The translations under genes and the position numbers were made by a program. From Parcubacteria group bacterium Athens0714_12 (GTDB lineage: Bacteria > Patescibacteriota > Patescibacteriia > UBA2591 > VMGY01): DNA of 64,000 bases. Position 1 is the stretch's first letter. The number at the start of each line of letters is the position of its first letter. The notes under the pieces were generated by a model. That model was not told the DNA's origin, did no database searches, and was given only the letters and a program-made list of their open reading frames with translations. Positions 25,168 through 55,139 of this stretch are shown in pieces. The DNA is taken from assembly GCA_007378955.1 (NCBI GenBank), contig VMGY01000001.1, positions 38,804-102,803 on the forward strand. The letters are read 5' to 3'.

Positions 25168-25947
25168 TTAAAAAAGAGTTTTGCGGTTATATTTTCTTTC
25201 TTCCTCGCCGGCTGCCGCGCGATAACGGCAAAAATCGCAATCAGGCGAAGCGCCGGGAATATTGTCGCTCATTAAACATTTGCGCGCTTCAAGTAAAACG
25301 TTTTCAATCCAAGAATCATCGCCTTTATAAGGGATTAATTCAATATCAAATTCTAATTTGGCGTCAAAAGCCTTACAGTCTGTTTTGCCATTGCAATAAA
25401 CAAAATAACCAACCGGCGAAACTTGGTAGCCATTTTGGCGAAAAAGCCATTGATAAATTTCCATCTGCCTCTTATAGCCAATCTGCCAATCCGCGTCCAA
25501 GTTTAACTGCCCTGTTTTTGAAGTCGCTTTGTAATCAACAATGATAAATTCTCCCTTTGGATTAACCCAAAGGTCGTCAATTCCGCCGGTAACAAAAAAA
25601 TTGCTCGGCTTGTGCAAAAAAGCGATTCCGCCGCGCAAAGCGTCTCGCCAAAAATCCAATTCTTTATGCGCCAAAGGCACCGCGTCAAGGCCATAAGTTT
25701 TCATTAAAGGATGGATTGTATTTTTTGCCCGATGAAGGTCAAATTCTTTTTTGAGCAACGCGTCAACCGCGGAATTAAGGGTGAAAGGATAACCCGGCGG
25801 CTGGCCGACGCCCAATCGCCTGTCAAGATAAAAACAGCGCGGACAATTCAAAAATAAATCAATTTTTGAACGGCTTAATCTGAAAGGATATTTTGAATTC
25901 GGGTCAAATAAATTCGATTTTCTTTTAGGGGTATAATATTTTGACAT
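25168..25947 (-). CDS. PD-(D/E)XK nuclease-superfamily protein (Cas4/RecB-nuclease-like) with cysteine clusters
   Basis: 'GIDDLW' and 'IVDYKATSK' fit the D...D/ExK core. Cysteines occur at the N-terminus 'CPRC' and the C-terminus 'CDFC', as in Fe-S Cas4/AddB nuclease domains. Confidence 0.6.
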   Translation of the reverse strand: MSKYYTPKRKSNLFDPNSKYPFRLSRSKIDLFLNCPRCFYLDRRLGVGQPPGYPFTLNSAVDALLKKEFDLHRAKNTIHPLMKTYGLDAVPLAHKELDFWRDALRGGIAFLHKPSNFFVTGGIDDLWVNPKGEFIIVDYKATSKTGQLNLDADWQIGYKRQMEIYQWLFRQNGYQVSPVGYFVYCNGKTDCKAFDAKLEFDIELIPYKGDDSWIENVLLEARKCLMSDNIPGASPDCDFCRYRAAAGEEERKYNRKTLF

Positions 25948-25968
25948 ATGATTATTGAACAGTTAAAA

Positions 25969-26003
25969 TTTGATTGATAATTGATAATTGATAATTGATA
26001 ATT
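25969..26003. repeat. Tandem heptamer (TTGATAA)x~4.5, followed by a GCGATAA-aaaa-TTATCGC hairpin
   Basis: The repeat is visible by direct reading and lies in the intergenic space between the nuclease and helicase genes. Confidence 0.6.
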
Positions 26004-26024
26004 TTCACGTTTTGCGATAAAAAA

Positions 26025-27665
26025 TTATCGCGCGTCAGATTCTTTCAAAAACAGCCGCGCGAGGCGCAGTTCGCGGTAGGAAAAACTTTCGCCGAGAATC
26101 TCGCGGACCACCGTCAATCTCGTATCCCCGGTCTCCTTAAAAACATTTTTTATTAATTCAAACCTTTTGCCCCATGGCCGCAAATATGACAAATCAAGGT
26201 TTTCATCCCGCTCAATTAATTTTTCCAGATGCCCTAAAATCGTATCCTCGGTCAAGCCGCGCTTTTCGGCAATTTCTTTAATGGAAAATTTTTGTAAAAC
26301 TAACATTTCCGTTTCCTCATATGTTGAAACGGATTTTAATTTTTCCGCCGGCGCGACAGATTTTAAAAATTCTTCCTGATTTTTTTCTTTTTCCAATTGG
26401 TTTAATTTTCTTAATCCAATACTAACCATCTCTGACATTCGCATTAATTCTTTATCTAATAATAACACTTCTTCATTGACTTGAAGAGCGATCTGATTCA
26501 AGCCCATCAATTTCAATCCCTCAAATGAGCGGACCCGCGAAAGCGCGACATAACCCATTCCTTCAACAAATGATTTGGAAAGGTCAATTTCCACCGCGTC
26601 CAAGCTCATCCCCTGGCTTTTATGCACGGTGATTGCCCAGGCCAAACGAAGCGGTATTTGGATAATTTCCGCTTTCGCCATCCCCTCTTCTTCTATCCGC
26701 CAGCTTTCCGGGCCGGCGATTATTTCTTTTCCTGTTTTACAAACCCGTACCACGGGAAAACCGTCTTCGTCAAAATCTTCAACTATACCAAGAGTGCCGT
26801 TCACGTAGCCTTTGTCAAAATTATTTTTAACAAACATCACCGCCGCTCCCCTTTTAAGTCGCAATTCCTCCGGCGCAAGACAGTTTTTTTTGAGAAAAGC
26901 CGCCAATTTTTTGTTGCCGCGGCTAGTCGCGAAATATGTTTTCATCTCTCCGCCAAGCGCTTCAAGATTTTTCTTATTGATAATATCAACATCAATATTA
27001 TGCGTGTAAAGTTTGGTCGCGGTAGAAAAATTTCGCGGACTTTTTTGGTATCTTTCTCTTAAAAATGACAATGTCCGCTCTCCCGCCTTATTCGCCCTGA
27101 TGTCGTTTAAGACTTTGATTAAAACGTCATCGCCCTGCCGATACTGCTCGCTTAAATAACAAATCTTTAAATTCATTTCCTGCCATATTTTTGATTTATT
27201 GGCAAAAGTTCTTTCCGTGCTGTTTTTTGAAACCGGTGGCAATTGAAAAAAATCTCCGCAAAGGACGACTTGCATACCGCCGAATGGCCGATTGTCTTTT
27301 TTGAAAGCCCGGCATACTTTATCAACCAAATCCAAATAAAAATAATGAAGCATGGAAACTTCATCGATGATTAAAACTTTGGTTTTTTCAAACCTTTTGG
27401 CGAGATAACGTTTTTTTGAAAGATCGCTGATTTCTCTTTCAGACATACTCTCTTTTATGCCGATTCCCGCCCAAGAATGAATCGTGATGCCATTCAGATG
27501 CGTGGCGGCAATTCCCGTGGAAGCGGTAACGCCGACGCCGACGCCCTTATTTTTTAAAAAATCAATATAAGCGTTAAGCGCGAATGTCTTCCCGCTTCCG
27601 GCCGGTCCAGTCAAAAAAACATTTTTTCCTAATTTTAATATTTCCAACGCCTCTTTTTGTGTCAT
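26025..27665 (-). CDS. Pif1/RecD-like SF1 DNA helicase with a C-terminal helicase-HTH domain
   Basis: Walker A 'GPAGSGKT', Walker B 'VLIIDEVSM', and 'VHKSQGMS' (motif VI-like). The C-terminal HTH reads 'KEIAEKRGLTEDTILGHLEKL'. Confidence 0.8.
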   Translation of the reverse strand: MTQKEALEILKLGKNVFLTGPAGSGKTFALNAYIDFLKNKGVGVGVTASTGIAATHLNGITIHSWAGIGIKESMSEREISDLSKKRYLAKRFEKTKVLIIDEVSMLHYFYLDLVDKVCRAFKKDNRPFGGMQVVLCGDFFQLPPVSKNSTERTFANKSKIWQEMNLKICYLSEQYRQGDDVLIKVLNDIRANKAGERTLSFLRERYQKSPRNFSTATKLYTHNIDVDIINKKNLEALGGEMKTYFATSRGNKKLAAFLKKNCLAPEELRLKRGAAVMFVKNNFDKGYVNGTLGIVEDFDEDGFPVVRVCKTGKEIIAGPESWRIEEEGMAKAEIIQIPLRLAWAITVHKSQGMSLDAVEIDLSKSFVEGMGYVALSRVRSFEGLKLMGLNQIALQVNEEVLLLDKELMRMSEMVSIGLRKLNQLEKEKNQEEFLKSVAPAEKLKSVSTYEETEMLVLQKFSIKEIAEKRGLTEDTILGHLEKLIERDENLDLSYLRPWGKRFELIKNVFKETGDTRLTVVREILGESFSYRELRLARLFLKESDAR

Positions 27666-27756
27666 AATTATAATTATTATCGCGCTTGATATGTAATTAA
27701 TTACTTACATCCATTATACCAAAAACCGTCGTTTACGGCGATTTCTAAAATCTTAA

Positions 27757-27909
27757 ATAATAGATTCTGTGAATTACGAAATGCGTTTTTTAAAACAAAA
27801 ATACGCGGGTAGATTGGAGCCTCTGCTCCAATCTTAGCTAATCTTGCTCCGAGTAGAGGCTCGGAGCTACCCATTTCGTATTTCGTAATTCACAGATAGA
27901 TTATTAATT
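27757..27909. mobile_element. MITE-like mini-element with ~25-bp terminal inverted repeats and two internal GC-rich hairpins
   Basis: The left arm TAATAGATTCTGTGAATTACGAAATG pairs with the right arm CATTTCGTATTTCGTAATTCACAGATAGATTATTA. Inside are the hairpins AGATTGGAGC-ctct-GCTCCAATCT and GCTCCGAG-tagagg-CTCGGAGC. No ORF is present. Confidence 0.5.
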
Positions 27910-28174
27910 TTATTCTTTAATAATTTTTCCATTCAATATAACACATTCAATAAAAAATAATGTTAAATAAGCAAAACTTAGAGCAACCATAAATGAAATA
28001 TTATATTTCAAAGGTATATTCTTATGTATTATTTTTTCATTTCTTATGACTCACGAATTATCTAATGCCAAAACTATATCTCTACTTACCCCAAACTTTT
28101 TTCATTTATCATTGGAGTCCCTTAGATAAGCTAATTTTTTACTAATTTTACCTTTTTTATTTATTGAAAATGTA

Positions 28175-28183
28175 TGTGGATAA
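28175..28183. promoter_or_regulatory. Perfect DnaA-box 9-mer (TGTGGATAA, the reverse complement of TTATCCACA) in the promoter region of the LexA-MTase gene
   Basis: Exact match to the E. coli-type consensus. It sits about 30 bp upstream of the TATAAT at 28214-28219. Confidence 0.4.
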
Positions 28184-28213
28184 CTTATTGTTTTCATTTC
28201 GGTGAATGTTCGG

Positions 28214-28219
28214 TATAAT
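28214..28219 (+). promoter_or_regulatory. Consensus -10 hexamer TATAAT for the LexA-MTase gene, immediately followed by a GATC site
   Basis: 'ggTATAATGATCg' lies 69 nt upstream of the ATG at 28288. Confidence 0.4.
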
Positions 28220-28287
28220 GATCGTATATAATAAATTTAATACTCTCGTCAATCTTCGCCAAGTCTTTGATTGACGCAATCAATAAT

Positions 28288-29760
28288 TTTATGCCTACGC
28301 TTACTAAAAGACAAAAACAAATTTACGATTATATTAAAAGCTATGTAGAAAAAAATGGCCTCTCCCCTACTTTTAATGAAATAAAAAAACATTTCAAATT
28401 GTCGGCTGCTTCAACAGTCCATCAGCACATTGGGGCTTTGGTAGAAAAAGAAATGCTTATTAAAAATAATTACAACTCTCGCGGAATTGAATTAAATAAA
28501 AAAAATAGAAAAGATTTAATCAAAATTCCTCTTGCGGGAACTATTGCCGCCGGCCAACCAATTGAAACGTTCCAAACAAACGAAACAATCACGGTTCCTA
28601 AAAATCTTCTTTCAAAATCCGGCGAGCATTTTGCCCTTAAAGTTAAAGGCGACAGTATGATTGACGAAGGTATTTTTGACGACGACACTGTTATAATCAG
28701 AAAACAAGATACCATTGAAAACGGGGAAACTGCGGTCGCTCTGATAAACGGCAATGAGGTTACATTAAAAAAAATATACAAAGAAAAAAATCGCATCCGG
28801 CTTCAGCCGGCGAATCCAAATTTAAAACCTCTTTTTGTTAAAAATGTTATCATTCAGGGCAAAGTTATCAGCGCTTTTAGAAATATAGAAAAAATTGAAG
28901 AAGAAGATACTATTTTAAAATCTGACGAAAAATCAAAAGGACTTGCGGCAATAGAGCAAAAACATTATTTCAATAGAAATAATTTTGTTTTATACCATAG
29001 CGACTGCGTCTCAATGCTCAATAGTATGAAGGAAAACTCTGTGGATATGATTTTCGCTGATCCGCCTTATCTTCTTTCAAATGGCGGTTTTAGCGTTCAT
29101 GCCGGGCGGCGCGTAAGCGTTGATAAGGGCGAATGGGATAAAAGCAACGGACTTAAAAAAGATTTTGAATTTCATCTTGAATGGATACAAGCCGCGAGGC
29201 GCGTTCTAAAGCCGCACGGAACTATTTGGATTAGCGGCACTTACCATTCCATATATCAATGCGGTTTCGCGGTTCAGGTCGCCAAATTTCATATTTTAAA
29301 CGATATCGCGTGGTTCAAGCCAAACGCTTCTCCGAATTTAAGTTGCCGTTATTTCACCGCAAGCCACGAAACCTTGCTTTGGGCGCGTAAAGATAAAAAC
29401 GCAAAGCATGCTTTTGATTATGATTTGATGAAAAATGGCAACTGGCCGGAAGATCAGCTCAAAAAACCCGGGTTTCAGATGCGTTCGGTTTGGGCGATGG
29501 GAACGCCGAAACGGATTGAAAAAAAATTTGGGAAACATCCAACGCAAAAACCGGAGGATTTATTAAAAAGAATTATTCTCGCGAGTACAAATAAAGACGA
29601 TTTAGTTGTCGATCCATTTACCGGAAGTTCTACGACAGGAATCGCTTCCCATCTTTTAGGAAGGCGCTTTATCGGCATTGATACCGAAAAAAAATATTTA
29701 GATTTATCAATTAAACGATTTGAAGAATTAGAACGTAATTTAAAAAATCCATCAAATTAA
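28288..29760 (+). CDS. Fusion protein: a complete LexA repressor (wHTH + S24 autopeptidase) fused to a beta-class DPPY N6A/N4C DNA methyltransferase
   Basis: The N-terminus 'LTKRQKQIYDYI...GLSPTFNEI...ASTVHQHIGALVEKEML' is the LexA DNA-binding domain. It is followed by 'AAGQPI', the nucleophile 'VKGDSMIDEG' and the general base 'EVTLKKIY'. The C-terminal half carries motif IV 'IFADPPYLL' before motif I 'VVDPFTGSSTTG', which is the beta-class order. The two halves form one uninterrupted ORF. The track starts it at a TTG at 28267; I use the ATG at 28288. Confidence 0.75.
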   Translation, partial: FMPTLTKRQKQIYDYIKSYVEKNGLSPTFNEIKKHFKLSAASTVHQHIGALVEKEMLIKNNYNSRGIELNKKNRKDLIKIPLAGTIAAGQPIETFQTNETITVPKNLLSKSGEHFALKVKGDSMIDEGIFDDDTVIIRKQDTIENGETAVALINGNEVTLKKIYKEKNRIRLQPANPNLKPLFVKNVIIQGKVISAFRNIEKIEEEDTILKSDEKSKGLAAIEQKHYFNRNNFVLYHSDCVSMLNSMKENSVDMIFADPPYLLSNGGFSVHAGRRVSVDKGEWDKSNGLKKDFEFHLEWIQAARRVLKPHGTIWISGTYHSIYQCGFAVQVAKFHILNDIAWFKPNASPNLSCRYFTASHETLLWARKDKNAKHAFDYDLMKNGNWPEDQLKKPGFQMRSVWAMGTPKRIEKKFGKHPTQKPEDLLKRIILASTNKDDLVVDPFTGSSTTGIASHLLGRRFIGIDTEKKYLDLSIKRFEELERNLKNPSN

Positions 29761-29773
29761 ACATGAAAAATAT

Positions 29774-30418
29774 ATGAAAATTATAACTCGCGCAATGGCA
29801 ATAAATAATCTAAAAAAATATATCGGCCAAGATTTACAAAAGTTAGCTTTAAAGTACGGTATTACAACCTATAAAGCTGGAAAACAAAACAAGGGTTGGA
29901 AAGGTCTTATTCTAGAAATACTAGCCGGATTGGAAAACAATATTTCTAAAGCTCCTAATGGCTTATCATACGAATTAAAATCCGTTAGTTCGCATTATAT
30001 AAAAAACAAGCTTGTGCCAAAAGAAACTATGGCGATAACTATGATTAATCCGCAAGAGTTAAAAGCCCATTCTTTTTTTGAAAGCCATTGTTGGGCAAAA
30101 TTAAAATCTCTAATTTTTTGCGCTGTGATGTGGCATGGAAAAAACGCGAAAACATCGGAATTATTAAAAGTCATAAGCTTGGATTTTGCGGAAAATGATG
30201 ATTTAATAAAGGAAGTAAGGGATGATTATGACTTCATACGAAACAAGCTAATTATTAATGGCTTTGACGCATTAACTGGAAAAGATGGGAAATGGATACA
30301 AGCAAGAACAAAAGGTATTGGCGGCATAAATCCTCAAACAGGAAAAAAACGGCCGGTAACTCGCGCGTTTTACGCAAGGCCTATTTTGATAAAAAAATTT
30401 TTTGAAATGGCAAATTAA
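29774..30418 (+). CDS. MutH/Sau3AI-family (GATC-type) restriction endonuclease
   Basis: 'KGWKGLILEILAGL...GLSYELKSV...KETMAITMINPQEL' aligns with the MutH core 'KGWIGVLLEIWLG...LGVELKTIP...ETTFVCVAPL'. The C-terminal 'RAFYARP' matches MutH 'RGFYLKK'. Confidence 0.7.
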   Translation: MKIITRAMAINNLKKYIGQDLQKLALKYGITTYKAGKQNKGWKGLILEILAGLENNISKAPNGLSYELKSVSSHYIKNKLVPKETMAITMINPQELKAHSFFESHCWAKLKSLIFCAVMWHGKNAKTSELLKVISLDFAENDDLIKEVRDDYDFIRNKLIINGFDALTGKDGKWIQARTKGIGGINPQTGKKRPVTRAFYARPILIKKFFEMAN

Positions 30419-30471
30419 TAAACAATAAATATACTTGATATCAAGGTTGAACCTCTATAACTTTAATTTTA

Positions 30472-30510
30472 TTTGGCGCATATTTAAATATGCGCCAAAT
30501 ATATTTTTTA
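30472..30510. terminator. Perfect 28-bp palindrome plus a T-run, terminating the R-M cassette and the convergent minus-strand gene
   Basis: TTTGGCGCATATTTAAATATGCGCCAAA is followed by TATATTTTTT. Confidence 0.65.
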
Positions 30511-30535
30511 GATTTTTTTGATGGCGAATTAACGG

Positions 30536-30889
30536 CTATTTATCTAATTTCGCGAGTTGTTTTTCGGCGAAATTTCCAATGACCGGCAATTTAAATTTTT
30601 CTCCGCTGTACGCTTTGTAAATCAAAACCAGCCAGAGAATTATCGTCAGGGGAGCGAAAGGCAACGCCAAAAAACCGATGAAAGGGATGACCGAGATTAA
30701 AAACAGCCCTAAAAACACCACCAAAGACTGCATCGCGTGGAACCGGACGAATTTATCTTCCTTTTCCAGCAATAAAAATACCACGCCGCTTACAAATCCA
30801 AAAACATAACAAAACGCTCCTTCTATATTTTCATCTAGATTAAGCGCTGTCTTGGATTTTTTCTCGATTTTGCTTTTTTTAGTTTTCAT
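30536..30889 (-). CDS. Small integral membrane protein (DUF4870-like), hypothetical
   Basis: 117 aa with 2-3 TM helices. The 'RFHAMQSL' motif is recalled from memory. Confidence 0.4.
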   Translation of the reverse strand: MKTKKSKIEKKSKTALNLDENIEGAFCYVFGFVSGVVFLLLEKEDKFVRFHAMQSLVVFLGLFLISVIPFIGFLALPFAPLTIILWLVLIYKAYSGEKFKLPVIGNFAEKQLAKLDK

Positions 30890-35853: not shown

Positions 35854-35862
35854 TTATCCACA
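35854..35862 (+). promoter_or_regulatory. Perfect DnaA-box 9-mer TTATCCACA (box 1) at about -35 of the giant Cys-repeat gene promoter
   Basis: Part of the 11-mer ACTTATCCACA, repeated 63 bp downstream. Confidence 0.4.
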
Positions 35863-35916: not shown

Positions 35917-35925
35917 TTATCCACA
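35917..35925 (+). promoter_or_regulatory. Perfect DnaA-box 9-mer TTATCCACA (box 2) between the -10 (TATAAT at 35891-35896) and the SD/start
   Basis: Same 11-mer ACTTATCCACA, in direct orientation. Confidence 0.4.
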
Positions 35926-35953
35926 ATTGGAAATTGGGACGATGGAGGTTAGA

Positions 35954-38900
35954 ATGAAAAAATTTACTCACTGCTTGAAAAAAATGGGGACGGGAATAAT
36001 CATTTTCGCCGTTCTTTTTATTTTTCAAGCGCAAGCGCAAACACCGGAAACAGATCTTCTGCCCGTGGTAGACGCTCCGCTATCCGGCAATCCGATCATT
36101 ACGGACACGGCAACCGACACGCCCGAAGCAACGAGCGCGCCTGAAACCGGGCTTCTCGCTAAAGAAACAGCTCCCCCGCCTGAAGTCTTGCAAGACACGC
36201 AAATCAGCGCGGAAGATTTAGGCGCGGTGAATGCCAGAATTAAACCGGGAAATTTCTTTCATCCTTTCAAGCAATTCGGCAGGGATGTCCAGGAATTTTT
36301 TACTTTTGACCCGGTTAAAAACGCTGAATTAAAACTCAAACACGCCAACCAGGAATTGTCAGAAATCCAACAGCTCGTGGAAGAAAAAGGCATTGAAAAC
36401 ATTAACCCGAAAATTCTGACTAATTCGGTTGATTGGTTTGAAAACAAAATGGAAAATATTAAAAATGCTTCGGAAAAAATCAAAGGCCAAAAAACTAAAA
36501 ATCCCGAAGGAATTGAGGAATTATTGAATAACCTGACAGATAAACAAATAAAGGAACATAAAATTTTGGAAAAATTCAATGAAGGCATTACTGAAAATAA
36601 AGAAAAAATCGTTGGCGCCGAAGACGCTTTTGCCGCTTTAAAAGATGTCCAAAGCAATGTTCTTAAACATTTCGGTGAAATTTTGACAAATGTAGATGAA
36701 CAGGAAAAAATCCCCGCAAGATTGAGCGCGGTAGCGAACGAGCAGCAAGGAAGCGAATTTAAACTTATAAAAACAACGGAAATTTTGAAAAAACTGCAAG
36801 AACAAGCTCCTGAAGAAACAAAAGACGCGATTAAAAAAGCCCAAACGAAAACCATGGAATTATTACAAGAAGATATGAAAGCCATGCCCGCGGTTGTCAG
36901 AGCGGAAAAATTTAAAACTTACACCAATGCTTTGCCCGGCAATGAAACAATCCAATTAAGCGTTTTTGAAGACTTAAAACAACTACCGAACATCCCGCAG
37001 GATATCTTGAAAAAAATTGAGGAAGTCAAAGAATTCGCCGTTAAAAGATTTGAAGAAAAAGCTATTAAATTTAAACAACCAGAAGTTCAAGAAAAATTTT
37101 TTGAAGATTTGAAAGGCGATTCTTTGGATGACATTATGGTTTTGGAAGAATTGAAAGCGAAAATTACCGCCAAACAGGAATCCCTAAAGAAAAAAGTGGA
37201 ACAAAAAAATATTGAAGGAATGGAAAAATTTAAAAAGAAATTTACCGATGCCCAGTCGCAAGAACAGGCAAAACAATTTGAAAAATTAGTTAAGGAAATG
37301 ACTGCTAATCCAAATCCGAAAACTTTAAAATTAATCAGTGAATTAGAAACTCAAGTCGCCCAGGACCCGGAGAAAAAAGCTTTTATTGAGGAAATAAAAA
37401 CTAAAACCAAAGCGGAAATGGAAACTAAATTCAGAATGGAAGGCGAACGATTTTTTGACCGAATGAGTTCTTTGAATCCGGAAGATATGATGGTCTTCCA
37501 AAAAATGGAGCAAGACCAATTTTACGACCCAATGATGATAGAGCAATTTTCACAACATCAAACTAATCGCTTTAAAGAATATGTCCAAGGAATTGATAAC
37601 ACGGAAAATTTTGACCGCTTTAATAAACGTTTCGGAACAGAAGTGGTGCAAATAATAAAAACAAAAGACACGGAATTCAGCAATGTAATGCAGTTCAAGT
37701 CCCGTAAAATCGCGGAAGCGGAAATGCAATTAAAAGAAAATGAGGCGCGGATGAAAATGGAATTAGAATGGAAAAAATCGGAAAATGATTTTCAGATGAA
37801 ATTAAGGCGAGCGGCTAATGACGAAGCTAAAAAAGCGCTTTATGAAGAAAAAAGGCAAAAAGAATTATCTTTAGTTGACCAAGAATTTGAAACGAGAAAA
37901 AAAATGATGCAAGAAAGAATTAAATTTGACCCTTTCTGCGACGAAATATGCCAGGTGATTCAAAAACAATTTCTTGAGCAAGATTCAAATTACAGAAAAC
38001 AAAATATTATGGAAGACGCGCGGATGAGAGAGTTTGAAATGGAATTAAGGACTCAACCTGCTATGGGTGGCGGCGACCCGTTCCAGGGAAAATGCCAAAG
38101 CCCTGAAACTTGCATGAAATTCTGCAAGGAAAATCTTAATTTTTCCGCTTGCCAAATGCTTGCCCCAATGCAAATGCAAATGCCGCCGCAGACGCAGCCA
38201 GTTGAAGGGCAAATGCCGCAAAATATCTACGCGAACAATCCAATGTATGGACCTCCTCCTTGCCCGCCAGGACAAATTAATATGCCGAAAGGTTCCGGAC
38301 AATGGGTATGCACCGACGACCCTTATCAAAAAATATCAGAAACTTTCAAAAAATGCCCTCCCGGCTATAACTGGAATGACATAAAAGCTTTCTGCGAATT
38401 CAACCAAGTAATGTTCAAAACATCCTGTCCGCAAGGCGAGTATTGGGATGAAGGGAAAAAAACTTGCATCAGGCCGGGAATGCCTCAAGCGTGTCCGCCT
38501 AGTCAATACTGGGACCCTGGAAAACAAGCTTGCGTAAGCTCTGGACAAAATCCTTGTCCGCCTAACCAATATTGGGACGCGGGAAAAAATGGCTGCGCGC
38601 AATACAAAACAGAACAAGCTTGTCCTCAAGGCCAATACTGGGACTCTGGCTTGCAAACTTGCAGAGGACAACAAATAACTCAACCAATGCCTGTTTTCTG
38701 CGGTCCGGGAGAATCTTGGGATAATATTCGCGGCTGTGTCCGTGAAAATTTCCAACAATGCGGTCCAGGCGAATATTTTGACTTCTATGAAAAACGTTGC
38801 AAAACAGACCAATGGAAATCTTGCCCGAGCGGCGAATACTGGGACCAGGGAAGAAATAGTTGTATTAGGGATATGATGGCTCAACCAGTTGAACAATGCG

Positions 38901-39778
38901 CTCAAGGATATTTCTGGGATTTCTATAAAAAACAATGCGTGAAAGATATGTATGCGCCACCACCCCCTGTTACTCCGCCTCAAGCCTGTCCGGCAGTTAT
39001 GCCTCGTCAATGTAACCCAGGCGAAACACCTACTTATGGTAATTGCGGCCCTTCCTGCACTATCCAATCCGCAACACCTTCCTGCCCATCAGGCCAATGG
39101 TGGTCTTCATCTGAAAATCGCTGTGCAGGCGGCGCCACTCCTACGCCAATAACAGGGGGTTGCGCCAGTATTATAGATAAAAACGTTTGCATGAGTAAAC
39201 CTGAATGCGGCGTTTGGTGCAGCGGAGATCCAAATCCGTGTTACGGACCAGGGCGCACCTGTGGAGGAAGTGGTACTTGCGGCAATAAAATCTGTGAAGG
39301 AAATGAAACAACAACTTCCTGCCCATCTGATTGCGGCGGCACTCCTCCTCCATCAGGCGGAGTCTGCGGCAATGGAACTTGTGAAAGCAGTGAAACGATG
39401 ACTTCCTGTCCAAGCGACTGCGGAACAACAAATTCCACTTGTCCATCAACCATTTACAACAACTACACTACTGGTTTTGCCTGTAATTATTCAAATTGCC
39501 CGAACGGCTGTATCTTTGACTACAAAGGCTGTCCTAACGGCTGCATAACCAGCACGACTATTTGCGGCAATGGCGTATGTGATAATGGAGAAACAACAAC
39601 CTCCTGCCCATCTGATTGCGGCGGCACTCCTCCTCCATCAGGCGGAGTCTGCGGCAATGGAACTTGTGAAAGCAATGAAACGATGACTTCCTGTCCATCT
39701 GATTGCGGCAATGTCCCGCCTCCGGGCTCTATCCTTCAAGCAATTCTTAATTTCTTTAAAAAGCTTTTCAGCAGATAA
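35954..39778 (+). CDS. Giant secreted protein: signal peptide, ~600-aa K/E-rich helical region, nine CPxGxYWDxGxxxC repeats, and C-terminal CGNGxCExxET..CPSDCG repeats
   Basis: The start is placed at the ATG at 35954, after GGAGG. The signal peptide is 'MKKFTHCLKKMGTGIIIFAVLFIFQAQAQ'. The repeats are visible directly, and two C-terminal blocks are near-identical at the DNA level. Confidence 0.7.
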   Translation: MKKFTHCLKKMGTGIIIFAVLFIFQAQAQTPETDLLPVVDAPLSGNPIITDTATDTPEATSAPETGLLAKETAPPPEVLQDTQISAEDLGAVNARIKPGNFFHPFKQFGRDVQEFFTFDPVKNAELKLKHANQELSEIQQLVEEKGIENINPKILTNSVDWFENKMENIKNASEKIKGQKTKNPEGIEELLNNLTDKQIKEHKILEKFNEGITENKEKIVGAEDAFAALKDVQSNVLKHFGEILTNVDEQEKIPARLSAVANEQQGSEFKLIKTTEILKKLQEQAPEETKDAIKKAQTKTMELLQEDMKAMPAVVRAEKFKTYTNALPGNETIQLSVFEDLKQLPNIPQDILKKIEEVKEFAVKRFEEKAIKFKQPEVQEKFFEDLKGDSLDDIMVLEELKAKITAKQESLKKKVEQKNIEGMEKFKKKFTDAQSQEQAKQFEKLVKEMTANPNPKTLKLISELETQVAQDPEKKAFIEEIKTKTKAEMETKFRMEGERFFDRMSSLNPEDMMVFQKMEQDQFYDPMMIEQFSQHQTNRFKEYVQGIDNTENFDRFNKRFGTEVVQIIKTKDTEFSNVMQFKSRKIAEAEMQLKENEARMKMELEWKKSENDFQMKLRRAANDEAKKALYEEKRQKELSLVDQEFETRKKMMQERIKFDPFCDEICQVIQKQFLEQDSNYRKQNIMEDARMREFEMELRTQPAMGGGDPFQGKCQSPETCMKFCKENLNFSACQMLAPMQMQMPPQTQPVEGQMPQNIYANNPMYGPPPCPPGQINMPKGSGQWVCTDDPYQKISETFKKCPPGYNWNDIKAFCEFNQVMFKTSCPQGEYWDEGKKTCIRPGMPQACPPSQYWDPGKQACVSSGQNPCPPNQYWDAGKNGCAQYKTEQACPQGQYWDSGLQTCRGQQITQPMPVFCGPGESWDNIRGCVRENFQQCGPGEYFDFYEKRCKTDQWKSCPSGEYWDQGRNSCIRDMMAQPVEQCAQGYFWDFYKKQCVKDMYAPPPPVTPPQACPAVMPRQCNPGETPTYGNCGPSCTIQSATPSCPSGQWWSSSENRCAGGATPTPITGGCASIIDKNVCMSKPECGVWCSGDPNPCYGPGRTCGGSGTCGNKICEGNETTTSCPSDCGGTPPPSGGVCGNGTCESSETMTSCPSDCGTTNSTCPSTIYNNYTTGFACNYSNCPNGCIFDYKGCPNGCITSTTICGNGVCDNGETTTSCPSDCGGTPPPSGGVCGNGTCESNETMTSCPSDCGNVPPPGSILQAILNFFKKLFSR

Positions 39779-54731: not shown

Positions 54732-55139
54732 TTAGGATTTCAAATTTTGTATTTCGAATTTTAACAATCTCTTCTCCAATCTCTCCATCTTTAAAGCGTC
54801 TTTTTCTTTCTGATGGTCATATCCCAATAAATGCAAAAGGCCATGAATCAATAAAATTTCTATTTCTTTTTTTATGGAATGTTTTTTCTCTTTCGCCTGC
54901 CTTTTTGCCTGTGGATAACAAATAATAATTTCCTTAACATCTTCAAAACTTAATACATCGGTGATACGATTTTTTTTTCTGTAAATTTTATTTAAATTTT
55001 TTATCGCCTTGTCCCCGACAAAAGCAATGGAAATTTCCTTGCTTTCTTTTTCCGCCATTTCTTTTAAACATTCTTTAATTATCTTTTTTATCCATCCTTT
55101 GCTAATCGACGCTTTAACTAAATTATTAATTTCAATCAT
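54732..55139 (-). CDS. ybeY: Endoribonuclease YbeY
   Basis: 'HGLLHLLGYDH' zinc motif. Confidence 0.85.
   Translation of the reverse strand: MIEINNLVKASISKGWIKKIIKECLKEMAEKESKEISIAFVGDKAIKNLNKIYRKKNRITDVLSFEDVKEIIICYPQAKRQAKEKKHSIKKEIEILLIHGLLHLLGYDHQKEKDALKMERLEKRLLKFEIQNLKS

What the first reader, a model, noticed from the sequence alone, without database searches (positions are those of the whole stretch)
28141..30510. LexA repressor fused in one ORF to a DPPY DNA methyltransferase, followed by a MutH-like endonuclease: a possible SOS-coupled restriction-modification cassette
The sequence shows a complete LexA (wHTH, the Ala-Gly cleavage-site region 'AAGQPI', the Ser nucleophile in 'GDSM' and the Lys in 'TLKK') continuing without a stop into a beta-class (DPPY before FxGxG) amino-methyltransferase. 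A MutH/Sau3AI-family endonuclease gene starts 13 nt downstream. Established knowledge: N-terminal HTH domains are known to autoregulate some methyltransferases (M.SsoII-type), whereas a self-cleaving LexA module on an R-M methyltransferase is not a textbook arrangement. Inference: RecA*-stimulated autocleavage could separate the DNA-binding domain from the methyltransferase, coupling R-M expression or activity to DNA damage; alternatively the organism's only LexA may have been captured by the cassette. A GATC site immediately follows the -10 hexamer, which fits a GATC-specific system regulating itself.
Basis: partly seen in the sequence, partly recalled or inferred. Interest (0 to 1): 0.8.

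Follow-up and report, generated by a model that had tools for sequence, protein, structure and literature searches.

The report
LexA repressor fused to DNA methyltransferase
In this tiny-genome (CPR/Patescibacteria) bacterium the DNA-damage (SOS) repressor LexA is joined in one protein to a DNA adenine methyltransferase and co-transcribed with a MutH-like nuclease, and related genomes show this is a recurrent way of placing restriction-modification genes under the lexA promoter.

Summary
ORF 28291-29760 encodes a complete LexA joined by a disordered linker to a beta-class N6-adenine MTase, and a MutH/Sau3AI-fold nuclease gene starts 13 nt downstream. It is not an assembly artefact: more than 120 protein clusters and 34 stop-free loci from CPR bacteria carry the same fusion, with the Ala-Gly, Ser and Lys self-cleavage residues invariant.

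- The LexA half is the lineage's ordinary LexA. It is 55-68% identical to stand-alone CPR LexA and keeps the native promoter.
- That promoter has a direct-repeat operator, (G/T)TTC-N7-(G/T)TTC, which co-varies with the recognition helix, and a DnaA-box-like TGTGGATAA.
- The MTase, with or without the nuclease, is a mobile module whose boundary is its own start codon. Most copies are unfused, and 23 of 32 fusions lack the nuclease.
- In 10 of 11 sampled lexA loci, unrelated R-M genes sit directly downstream of lexA. LexA is also fused to C5 and gamma-class MTases.

So the cell's lexA has captured an R-M module, and expression is probably SOS-inducible. The promoter GATC argument fails because the site is not conserved. 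Specificity is unresolved (GATC favoured, GANTC possible), and all biochemistry is inferred.

The parts
28175..28183 (+). DnaA-box-like element TGTGGATAA (reverse complement of TTATCCACA), just upstream of the -35 hexamer
   Evidence: A perfect copy lies 40-95 nt upstream of the ATG in 25 of 31 lexA-fusion loci against 1 of 121 unfused MTase loci. It is also present at stand-alone lexA promoters. The window holds 4 copies against 0.39 expected. Binding by DnaA is an inference.
28191..28219 (+). Promoter: -35 TTTTCA (28191-28196), 17-nt spacer, -10 TATAAT (28214-28219)
   Evidence: Best sigma-70-like match in 27600-30700, 10 of 12 positions. Homologous promoters have the same layout.
28198..28214 (+). 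Candidate LexA operator: direct repeat TTCGGT-N5-TTCGGT (11-bp period) filling the promoter spacer and abutting the -10
   Evidence: The only perfect copy in the window. TTCGG-N6-TTCGG occurs 21 times at lexA promoters and 4 times elsewhere in 1.66 Mb. The repeat sequence co-varies with the LexA recognition helix. Binding itself was not tested.
28291..29760 (+). lexA-MTase fusion gene (489 aa plus stop)
28291..28485 (+). LexA winged-HTH DNA-binding domain; recognition helix 'STVHQHI'
   Evidence: Pfam LexA_DNA_bind 48.6 bits; co-variation with the operator.
28549..28554 (+). Ala87-Gly88 self-cleavage bond
   Evidence: Invariant in 25 diverse fusions. Aligns with LexA structures.
28528..28869 (+). 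Peptidase S24 catalytic and dimerisation domain: Ser122 (28654-28656) and Lys160 (28768-28770)
   Evidence: Pfam 104.6 bits. Ser122 and Lys160 are invariant.
28885..28956 (+). Flexible linker (residues 199-222)
   Evidence: AF2 pLDDT about 30. Across fusions it is 16-47 aa, hydrophilic, and falls into several unrelated sequence groups.
28957..29757 (+). Beta-class N6-adenine DNA methyltransferase module: DPPY at 29059-29070, FxGxG-type motif at 29611-29640
   Evidence: Pfam N6_N4_Mtase 199.7 bits. CcrM catalytic domain (6PBD) 205 bits, but no CcrM C-terminal domain. The module boundary equals the N-terminus 'MQKPYYEK' of unfused homologs.
29774..30418 (+). MutH/Sau3AI-fold endonuclease gene (214 aa), presumed cognate restriction enzyme
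30470..30511 (+). Intrinsic terminator: 14-bp stem followed by a T-run, closing the two-gene unit
   Evidence: Hairpin -19.3 kcal/mol, z = -7.0.

Best explanation
The gene is the bacterium's own SOS repressor gene, lexA, still under its native autoregulated promoter. It has become joined in frame to the methyltransferase of a mobile Type II R-M-like module (MTase plus MutH/Sau3AI-fold nuclease) that landed in the slot directly downstream of lexA.

Proposed working. The intact protein dimerises through its S24 domain. It binds the direct-repeat operator in the promoter spacer and keeps lexA-MTase and the nuclease at a low, self-limiting level. The MTase domain, on a flexible linker, methylates the genome, probably at GATC. 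DNA damage or other RecA-ssDNA filaments trigger self-cleavage at Ala87-Gly88. This detaches the DNA-binding domain from the S24-MTase part, lifts repression, and raises MTase output first and nuclease output second. Repression can only return by making new intact LexA, each copy carrying one MTase. So every SOS episode ends with a burst of modification capacity.

Shown here: the domain architecture, conservation of the cleavage residues, the promoter, operator and terminator anatomy, orthology to stand-alone LexA, modular mobility of the MTase, and recurrence of lexA->R-M linkage.

Inferred: operator binding, RecA-dependent cleavage, co-transcription, methylation and cleavage specificity, and any physiological benefit.
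For: - Complete LexA above the equivalog cutoff, plus a beta-class MTase, in one ORF.
- Fusion found in more than 120 clusters and 34 stop-free loci.
- Ala87, Gly88, Ser122 and Lys160 invariant; linker variable and predicted disordered.
- The LexA half is 55-68% identical to 195-200-aa stand-alone CPR LexA, the same range as among the fusions.
- Fused and stand-alone lexA share one promoter layout: the TGTGGATAA box, then an 11-bp-period direct repeat inside the -35/-10 spacer.
- Operator and recognition helix co-vary: HQH with TTCGG, HFH or NHY with TTCTA, and class B SSNQxLLD with the palindrome CCGACCA-N2-TGGTCGG.
- Homology between fused and unfused MTases starts exactly at the MTase N-terminus. 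L097 is a lexA-stop-9 codons-ATG intermediate.
- Fused MTases are up to 95-96% identical to unfused ones, and the fused state is scattered on the MTase tree.
- 10 of 11 sampled lexA loci have R-M genes at -19 to +73 nt downstream on the same strand. These include DpnI, HinfI, Tsp45I, DraIII-linked, N6_N4, Eco57I-type and C5/Vsr genes.
- LexA is also fused to C5 and gamma-class MTases.
- The window unit is bounded by one good promoter and one strong terminator, with a 13-nt M-R gap.
Against: - No experiment. Binding, cleavage, methylation and restriction are all inferred.
- The 64-kb window contains no second good operator and no recA, so control of a wider SOS regulon by this protein is not shown.
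- A second lexA elsewhere in the genome cannot be excluded. Only the window was searched, and L170 shows a second S24 gene near lexA.
- 23 of 32 fusions lack the nuclease, so the fusion is not specifically an R-M control device.
- The nuclease has an invariant Asn where MutH has catalytic Asp70.
- Fusion rather than simple operon linkage may add nothing functionally, as genome compaction would also produce it.
- MTase specificity is unresolved.
Confidence: 0.6

Rival explanations
1. Neutral compaction. lexA and the MTase were simply neighbours in an operon, and loss of a stop codon fused them. The two halves work independently, and self-cleavage has no consequence for methylation beyond ordinary co-expression.
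For: - L097 shows the unfused intermediate, with only 9 codons between the lexA stop and the MTase ATG in the same frame.
- Linkers are variable and disordered.
- Fused MTase domains are indistinguishable from unfused ones, at up to 95-96% identity.
- Other MTase families next to lexA are mostly unfused but overlapping.
Against: - Fusion recurs with at least two LexA classes, several unrelated linker groups and three MTase families, and it persists down to 57% identity without decaying. This suggests it is at least tolerated under selection.
- When this MTase family lies next to lexA, it is fused in 34 of 35 cases.
Confidence: 0.25
2. Dedicated controller. The LexA-like module is not the cell's SOS repressor. 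It is a C-protein or M.SsoII-like autoregulator that belongs to and travels with the R-M element, while a separate LexA runs the SOS response.
For: - N-terminal DNA-binding regions that autoregulate MTases are known (established knowledge: M.SsoII, M.EcoRII, M.MspI).
- The only good operator in the window is at the gene's own promoter.
- A second S24 gene lies near lexA in L170.
Against: - LexA does not travel with the MTase. Homology between fused and unfused copies begins at the MTase start, and most copies of the module have no LexA.
- The LexA half scores as a LexA equivalog and is as close to stand-alone CPR LexA as orthologs are.
- Stand-alone lexA genes have the same box and operator.
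- No second LexA in the 64-kb window.
Confidence: 0.1
3. Not restriction-modification but strand discrimination. The adenine MTase plus MutH homolog is a Dam/MutH-type methyl-directed mismatch-repair module wired to the SOS repressor.
For: - The MutH DNA-reading motifs (D/N)KGW and Q-x-R-x-K are conserved.
- MutH is a nickase, which would fit a possibly weakened active site with Asn62.
Against: - The distribution is patchy and mobile. The nuclease is present in about 40% of MTase loci, needing 35 gain or loss steps on the MTase tree, with high identity across distant lineages.
- GATC is strongly depleted in the window (O/E 0.31), which is typical of restriction pressure.
- It scores far below the MutH equivalog cutoffs, 46 against 243 bits.
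- The same genomic slot holds classical restriction enzymes in relatives.
Confidence: 0.05

Closest known systems
Canonical LexA (SOS repressor, MEROPS S24; e.g. E. coli and Thermotoga maritima LexA, PDB 1JHH and 3K2Z)
   Same: It has the winged-HTH plus S24 domain with the Ala-Gly bond and Ser/Lys dyad. It scores above the TIGR00498 cutoff. An operator lies in its own promoter, implying autoregulation.
   Different: It carries about 265 extra C-terminal residues forming an active-looking DNA MTase. The operator is a direct repeat, (G/T)TTC-N7-(G/T)TTC, rather than the usual palindrome. From memory, this resembles the alphaproteobacterial GTTC-N7-GTTC box. A DnaA-box-like element flanks the promoter.
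MTases with an N-terminal autoregulatory DNA-binding region (M.SsoII, M.EcoRII, M.MspI) and C-protein-controlled R-M systems
   Same: A DNA-binding module physically or genetically coupled to the MTase represses the R-M promoter. This is an analogy in logic, drawn from established knowledge.
   Different: Those are C5 MTases with a short HTH region, or use separate small C proteins. None has a self-cleaving protease domain or any link to RecA and the SOS response. Here the regulator is the cell's global LexA, not an element-specific controller.
CcrM / M.HinfI group of beta-class N6-adenine MTases (GANTC)
   Same: CcrM is the best solved match, at 205 bits over CcrM residues 7-257. Conserved with CcrM are DPPY, Y93/H94, K118, P123, H134/E135 and T191/K193.
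   Different: It scores 241 bits against the CcrM equivalog cutoff of 830 and has no C-terminal DNA-binding domain. The G-reading Arg44 aligns to His and the T-reading Arg129 aligns to Tyr. It is therefore not a CcrM ortholog, and GANTC specificity is not established.
MutH and Sau3AI (GATC-specific PD-(D/E)XK nucleases)
   Different: Only 15-18% identical and far below the equivalog cutoffs. It is single-domain, unlike Sau3AI. It has an invariant Asn62 in place of MutH Asp70. It is paired with a beta-class MTase rather than Dam or the C5 M.Sau3AI.
Pneumococcal DpnI/DpnII alternative cassettes with competence-induced DpnA
   Same: One chromosomal slot holds alternative restriction modules. In relatives, lexA is followed by DpnI (L163, L165) or by MTase-containing modules. 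A beta-class adenine MTase is placed under a stress or ssDNA-responsive regulator (the comparison itself is from memory).
   Different: The regulator here is LexA rather than the competence sigma factor. The cassettes are of many unrelated families, and the MTase can be fused to the regulator.
DNA-damage-responsive regulators of defence systems (CapH/CapP for CBASS; WYL-domain BrxR)
   Same: A repressor inactivated on DNA damage sits next to defence genes. In L167, lexA is flanked by CBASS and GmrSD genes as well as an MTase. BrxR and WYL papers surfaced.
   Different: Those are dedicated local regulators of other families. Here it is LexA itself, and it is covalently joined to an effector enzyme.

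Membership tests
LexA (TIGR00498 / Peptidase S24 repressors) | N-terminal LexA-type winged-HTH domain | tested here: met
   Pfam LexA_DNA_bind 48.6 bits against cutoff 23.7, covering the full profile.
LexA (TIGR00498 / Peptidase S24 repressors) | S24 domain with an Ala-Gly scissile bond and a Ser/Lys catalytic dyad | tested here: met
   Peptidase_S24 104.6 bits. A87, G88, S122 and K160 are invariant in 25 fusions.
LexA (TIGR00498 / Peptidase S24 repressors) | Whole-protein score above the curated equivalog cutoff | tested here: met
   184.1 bits against 110.95. Class B fusions are borderline at 110.7 and 121.6 bits.
LexA (TIGR00498 / Peptidase S24 repressors) | Operator in its own promoter (autoregulation) | tested here: met
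   The direct repeat lies in the -35/-10 spacer, is specific to lexA promoters (21 sites against 4 elsewhere) and co-varies with the recognition helix. Physical binding was not tested.
LexA (TIGR00498 / Peptidase S24 repressors) | Controls a DNA-repair (SOS) regulon | tested here: inconclusive
   No further good operator and no recA in the 64-kb window. The rest of the genome could not be reached.
LexA (TIGR00498 / Peptidase S24 repressors) | RecA*-stimulated self-cleavage | not testable with these tools
   Needs biochemistry.
Beta-class N6-adenine DNA MTase (PF01555) | Motif IV (DPPY) N-terminal to motif I (FxGxG), with the Pfam model above cutoff | tested here: met
   DPPY at residues 257-260 and DPFTGSSTTG at 441-450. 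N6_N4_Mtase 199.7 bits against 26.7.
CcrM orthologs (NF050803) | Equivalog score, C-terminal DNA-binding domain, and the GANTC-reading residues Arg44 and Arg129 | tested here: not met
   241 bits against cutoff 830. The match ends at CcrM residue 257. Arg44 aligns to His and Arg129 to Tyr.
MutH/Sau3AI endonuclease family (PF02976) | Family HMM above cutoff and the MutH fold | tested here: met
MutH/Sau3AI endonuclease family (PF02976) | Catalytic E...D...E-x-K constellation (MutH E56, D70, E77, K79) | tested here: inconclusive
   E48 and E67-L-K69 are invariant, but Asn62 aligns to Asp70 and is itself invariant. The model has low confidence in this loop, residues 57-65.
MutH or Sau3AI orthologs (NF003458 / NF040973) | Equivalog score | tested here: not met
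   45.8 against 243 bits and 46.9 against 300 bits.
Type II restriction-modification system | Adjacent, co-oriented MTase and nuclease genes whose pairing is conserved across genomes | tested here: met
   13-nt gap in the window. The nuclease follows this MTase in 54 of the loci scored, though about 80 other loci have the MTase alone.
Type II restriction-modification system | Shared recognition sequence, with methylation protecting against cleavage | not testable with these tools
   Indirect tests were indecisive. GATC O/E is 0.31 in the window, but there is no difference between loci with and without the nuclease.
M.SsoII-type autoregulatory MTases | C5-MTase with a short N-terminal HTH region that represses the R-M promoter | tested here: not met
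   Here the MTase is an N6-adenine beta-class enzyme and the N-terminal part is a full LexA with a protease domain. The resemblance is functional only.

The most novel reading that the evidence does not exclude
In Patescibacteria, LexA would be the master switch of restriction-modification and defence, not only of repair. On this reading the slot downstream of lexA is a dedicated, SOS- and possibly DnaA-controlled docking site for R-M modules. Covalent LexA-MTase fusion would make RecA-triggered self-cleavage directly alter the modification enzyme, through its stability, dimerisation or targeting. DNA damage or incoming ssDNA would then reprogramme the balance between methylation and restriction, giving either built-in restriction alleviation or damage-triggered self-restriction.
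Probability: 0.25. Interest if true: 0.85.

Novelty: new variant of a known kind. Interest (0 to 1): 0.7.

Why it matters
R-M systems are known to be controlled by C proteins or by HTH regions on the MTase. The SOS response is known to be triggered by R-M imbalance. A physical and genetic merger of the SOS sensor-repressor with R-M enzymes has not, as far as I could find, been described.

If the mechanism holds, it gives a simple circuit in which DNA damage, including self-restriction, feeds back on modification capacity. It also identifies lexA as the anchor of a defence hot spot in a huge, mostly uncultured bacterial radiation with very few regulators.

It also gives practical handles:
- a predicted LexA operator family, with recognition-helix/operator pairs, for reconstructing CPR SOS regulons
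- a correction for hundreds of database entries currently named only 'DNA modification methylase'
- a compact self-cleaving repressor-enzyme fusion that can be tested directly in E. coli.

Tried and rejected
- **Assembly or frameshift artefact.** Rejected. More than 120 clusters and 34 stop-free loci carry the fusion. My first frame-only criterion misclassified L097, which has stops, and I corrected this.
- **Promoter GATC as methylation-sensitive self-control.** Rejected. The site is not conserved.
- **Fixing specificity from site avoidance.** GATC is depleted in the window (O/E 0.31), but so are TCGA and CTAG. Pooled and per-locus comparisons of loci with and without the nuclease show no difference. 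Inconclusive.
- **Fixing specificity from CcrM similarity.** The catalytic scaffold is conserved, but two base-reading arginines are not. The PDB chain labelled 'DpnA' (5HEK) cannot be used as a GATC reference on its label alone.
- **Comparison with the MTase paired with a HinfI-family nuclease (L169).** The two MTases are unrelated, so this was uninformative.
- **Search for further operators or a second LexA in the window.** None found.
- **Virus-borne cassette.** No fusions in IMG/VR, and only one distant MutH-like neighbour.
- **Literature.** Six full-text searches found no description of the fusion, of lexA-R-M operons or of a DnaA box at lexA. The most relevant paper (Sanchez-Osuna, Barbe and Erill 2017, Environ Microbiol 19:3465, on the Patescibacteria SOS network) is not held, so prior mention there cannot be excluded.
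- **One tree-building script timed out** and was redone with a faster method.


Full report
**1. What is in the window**

A single ORF runs from 28267 (TTG) to the stop at 29760. Alignment with 24 homologs shows the real start is ATG 28291 ('MPTLTKRQ...'). This gives 489 aa, identical to a database protein from 'Parcubacteria group bacterium Athens1014_10' that is annotated only as 'DNA modification methylase'.

Pfam finds LexA_DNA_bind, Peptidase_S24 and N6_N4_Mtase, all well above their cutoffs. NCBIfam scores the N-terminal 200 residues as a LexA equivalog, 184 bits against a cutoff of 111.
- Ala87-Gly88
- Ser122 in GDSM
- Lys160 in TLKK
- DPPY (257-260) ahead of DPFTGSSTTG (441-450), which is the beta-class order.

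The best promoter-like site in the region is TTTTCA-17-TATAAT at 28191-28219. A strong hairpin terminator (-19.3 kcal/mol, z = -7) closes the unit at 30470-30511. Surrounding genes are core chromosomal (DnaE, ThrRS, DnaX, NrdD, FtsA/FtsZ, GatB, RF, HisRS), with a PIF1-type helicase and a PD-(D/E)XK nuclease transcribed divergently upstream.

**2. The fusion is real and widespread**

A search of about 5.8 billion proteins returned 120 listed clusters at 57-100% identity. Of these, 118 carry all three Pfam domains and the other two are N-terminally truncated.

Scans of species-representative genomes and of metagenomes gave 161 loci containing this MTase. After an explicit stop-codon check, 34 are true in-frame LexA-MTase fusions.

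Across 25 diverse fusions, the scissile Ala-Gly and the Ser/Lys dyad are invariant, and so are the MTase motifs. The linker is 16-47 aa, hydrophilic, and falls into several unrelated sequence groups. AlphaFold predicts both halves folded and the linker (residues 199-222) disordered, with pLDDT about 30.

**3. Three separable modules**

The MTase core is very common in CPR genomes and unusually conserved, at 68-89% identity across distant lineages. This fits a horizontally mobile gene.

Counts among loci that could be scored on both sides:

| | nuclease present | nuclease absent |
|---|---|---|
| LexA fused | 10 | 23 |
| not fused | 44 | 57 |

Stop-codon reclassification changes the fused row to 9 with and 23 without, plus one operon-type locus. 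Fusion and nuclease presence are therefore independent accessories.

On an MTase tree the fused state is scattered, needing about 16 parsimony steps. Several fused MTases are 95-96% identical to unfused ones.

DNA and protein homology between such pairs begins within a few nucleotides of the unfused MTase's own start ('MQKPYYEK...'). Most fusion linkers end '...QKP', which is the MTase N-terminus minus its Met. L097 preserves an intermediate: the lexA stop, nine codons, then the MTase ATG in the same frame.

Two LexA classes only about 25% identical to each other are fused to MTases that are 85-90% identical. So fusion has happened more than once, or MTase alleles recombine freely behind a resident lexA.

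**4. The LexA half is the lineage's ordinary LexA with its native promoter**

Searching with residues 1-205 alone finds stand-alone CPR LexA proteins (195-200 aa, several named 'transcriptional repressor LexA') at 55-68% identity. That is the same range as among the fusions.

Upstream of fusion genes there are two conserved elements.
- **A perfect TGTGGATAA**, the reverse complement of the DnaA-box consensus. It lies within 250 nt upstream in 25 of 31 fused loci but in only 1 of 121 unfused MTase loci. So it belongs to lexA, not to the MTase.
- **A repeat filling the -35/-10 spacer.**

Stand-alone lexA genes have the same layout. The repeat co-varies with the recognition helix:

| Recognition helix | Repeat |
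|---|---|
| ST(V/I)HQHI | TTCGG-N6-TTCGG |
| STAHFHV or STVNHYM | TTTCTA-N5-(T/G)TTCTA |
| class B SSNQxLLD | palindrome CCGACCA-N2-TGGTCGG |

TTCGG-N6-TTCGG occurs 21 times at lexA promoters and only 4 times elsewhere in 1.66 Mb of fetched DNA. This is good comparative evidence that these are the LexA operators.

In the window the operator is TTCGGTGAATGTTCGGT (28198-28214), abutting the -10. Its general form, (G/T)TTC-N7-(G/T)TTC, resembles the alphaproteobacterial direct-repeat LexA box. That comparison is from memory and was not tested.

**5. The wider pattern: lexA is followed by R-M genes**

I looked up eleven lexA loci chosen only for LexA similarity and contig length. Ten have restriction or modification genes immediately downstream on the same strand, at -19 to +73 nt.

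| Locus | Directly downstream of lexA |
|---|---|
| L162 | DUF6996/6997, then an N6_N4 MTase |
| L163 | DpnI (plus a DpnII fragment) |
| L165 | DpnI |
| L166 | Eco57I-type N6 MTase overlapping lexA, with a convergent DraIII-family gene |
| L167 | Eco57I-type N6 MTase overlapping lexA, with CBASS and GmrSD genes divergent |
| L169 | N6_N4 MTase, then a HinfI-family nuclease |
| L170 | N6_N4 MTase |
| L171 | Eco57I-like MTase, then a Tsp45I-family nuclease |
| L172 | Vsr, then a C5 MTase |
| L164 | C5 MTase fused to LexA, beside an Mrr/SRA gene |

The eleventh locus (L168) has an overlapping 344-aa gene of unknown family, close to dnaN and dnaA. These MTases are unrelated, or only distantly related, to the window's MTase. 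LexA fused to a gamma-class N6 MTase also exists (P0135).

The window's gene is therefore the extreme end of a general arrangement in which R-M modules sit in the lexA transcription unit.

**6. Specificity**

This remains unresolved.

Points toward GATC:
- Every close structural relative of the nuclease (MutH, Sau3AI) is GATC-specific.
- The MutH DNA-reading motifs (D/N)KGW and Q-x-R-x-K are conserved.
- GATC is strongly depleted in the window: 52 observed against 168 expected, O/E 0.31.
- Relatives carry methyl-GATC-dependent DpnI in the same slot.
- HinfI-type (GANTC) nucleases belong to a different Pfam family.

Points toward GANTC:
- The MTase's best characterised relative is CcrM, at 205 bits.

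Against reading too much into the CcrM match:
- It is far below the CcrM equivalog cutoff.
- It lacks the CcrM C-terminal domain.
- The base-reading Arg44 and Arg129 described in PMC6787082 are not conserved.

Comparing site depletion between loci with and without the nuclease gave no signal: GATC p = 0.92 and GANTC p = 0.07. My estimate is GATC about 55%, GANTC about 30%, other about 15%.

**7. A caveat on the nuclease**

The residue aligned to MutH catalytic Asp70 is an invariant Asn (N62). E48 and E67-L-K69 are conserved. The model has low confidence in exactly this loop.

The family is large (2,390 hits) and strongly conserved, so it is under selection. Whether it is a standard double-strand restriction enzyme, a nickase or something else cannot be decided here.

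**8. Most likely mechanism**

Shown here:
- the architecture and the conserved cleavage residues
- the operator inside the promoter
- a single promoter and terminator around both genes
- orthology to stand-alone LexA
- modular mobility of the MTase
- recurrence of lexA-R-M linkage.

Inferred:
- The intact dimer represses its own promoter, holding LexA-MTase and the nuclease at a low steady level.
- RecA filaments, formed on DNA damage, self-restriction breaks or incoming ssDNA, trigger cleavage at Ala87-Gly88. This separates the DNA-binding domain from S24-MTase.
- Derepression raises the MTase first and the nuclease second.
- Repression is restored only by new intact protein, each molecule bringing one MTase.

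Whether cleavage also changes MTase stability, dimerisation or targeting is open. So is whether fusion adds anything beyond operon linkage.

Rivals considered:
- neutral compaction, 0.25
- a dedicated R-M controller distinct from the SOS LexA, 0.10
- a Dam/MutH-type mismatch-repair module, 0.05.

An assembly artefact is excluded.

**9. Novelty**

The proteins are in public databases but are named only as methylases. Six full-text searches found no description of LexA-MTase fusions, of lexA-R-M operons or of a DnaA box at lexA. The one paper most likely to touch on it, Sanchez-Osuna et al. 2017 on the Patescibacteria SOS network, is not held, so I cannot exclude prior mention.

I rate it a new variant of a known kind: regulator-coupled R-M, here using the self-cleaving global SOS repressor. 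Interest is 0.7. It would surprise both SOS and R-M specialists, it is widespread, and it is directly testable. Every functional step is still inference.

Noticed in passing
window 28175-28183; also 35854-35862(-), 35917-35925(-), 54910-54918(+): A perfect DnaA-box sequence (TGTGGATAA / TTATCCACA) sits just upstream of the -35 of lexA promoters: 25 of 31 fused loci against 1 of 121 unfused MTase loci, and also at stand-alone lexA. The window has 4 copies against 0.39 expected. Two of them lie in the intergenic region upstream of the 1283-aa DUF5667 gene (35927-39778). This suggests DnaA input into lexA expression in CPR bacteria. I found no literature on it.
   Followed up: partly
L162-L172 (stand-alone lexA loci): The position immediately downstream of lexA holds R-M genes of at least 5 unrelated families in 10 of 11 sampled loci: DpnI, HinfI, Tsp45I, DraIII-linked, N6_N4, Eco57I-type and C5+Vsr. 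They often overlap lexA, so this looks like an R-M hot spot or operon under the lexA promoter.
   Followed up: partly
P0175, P0206 (L164:1521-2540), P0209, P0135, P0121: LexA is also fused to C5 cytosine MTases (PF00145) and to gamma-class N6 MTases (PF02384, MADS2/Alw26I-like). P0128 shows LexA followed by an epimerase/dehydratase-like fragment on a short contig, which may be an artefact.
   Followed up: partly
L009, L099-L103, L105 (promoters about 30-60 nt upstream of the fusion ATG): A second, divergent LexA class (about 25% identical; TIGR00498 110.7-121.6 bits, around the cutoff) is fused to the same MTase family. It has a different, palindromic operator, CCGACCA-N2-TGGTCGG, between TTGACA and TATTAT, and keeps the TGTGGATAA box.
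   Followed up: partly
LexA residues about 41-47 (window 28411-28431) and operators in 40 loci: The LexA recognition helix and the operator half-site co-vary cleanly: HQH with TTCGG, and HFH or NHY with TTCTA. This is a ready-made specificity code for CPR LexA.
   Followed up: yes
window, whole 64 kb: Three 4-bp palindromes are strongly depleted: TCGA (O/E 0.21), CTAG (0.28) and GATC (0.31). GGCC is at 0.51. This suggests past or present pressure from several restriction systems.
   Followed up: partly
window 29954-29959 (REase residues P61-N62): The MutH-like nuclease family has an invariant Asn where MutH has catalytic Asp70, while the E...E-x-K residues are kept. This may be a non-canonical active site or a nickase.
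   Followed up: partly
L167:1-3843: A CBASS operon (SMODS/AGS_C cyclase plus SLATT_4 effector) and GmrSD are transcribed divergently from a lexA promoter region. LexA may control a small defence island there.
   Followed up: no
L159:171-222: Two TTCTA-type LexA operators in opposite orientation, each next to a -10-like hexamer, lie in front of an unfused copy of the MTase at a contig end. This could be a LexA-regulated MTase without fusion.
   Followed up: no
L002, L003, L004, L005, L085-L087, L089, L090 (14-17 nt upstream of the ATG): A conserved (G)AGTCAA(Y) element sits at a fixed distance upstream of the start codon in a subset of fusion genes. In some it creates a GANTC site. Its function is unknown.
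   Followed up: no
window 25168-27665 (- strand): A PIF1-family helicase with a C-terminal HTH_40 domain and a PD-(D/E)XK nuclease (PDDEXK_1) are transcribed divergently from the lexA-MTase promoter region across a 625-bp spacer. They may be repair or defence genes sharing the regulatory region.
   Followed up: no
L163:3733-3775, L169:3686-3730, L082:3243, L168:3970-4010: In several loci the box-plus-operator promoter lies 250-750 nt upstream of, or inside, the annotated lexA start. This implies long leaders, small upstream ORFs or mis-called start codons in public annotations.
   Followed up: no
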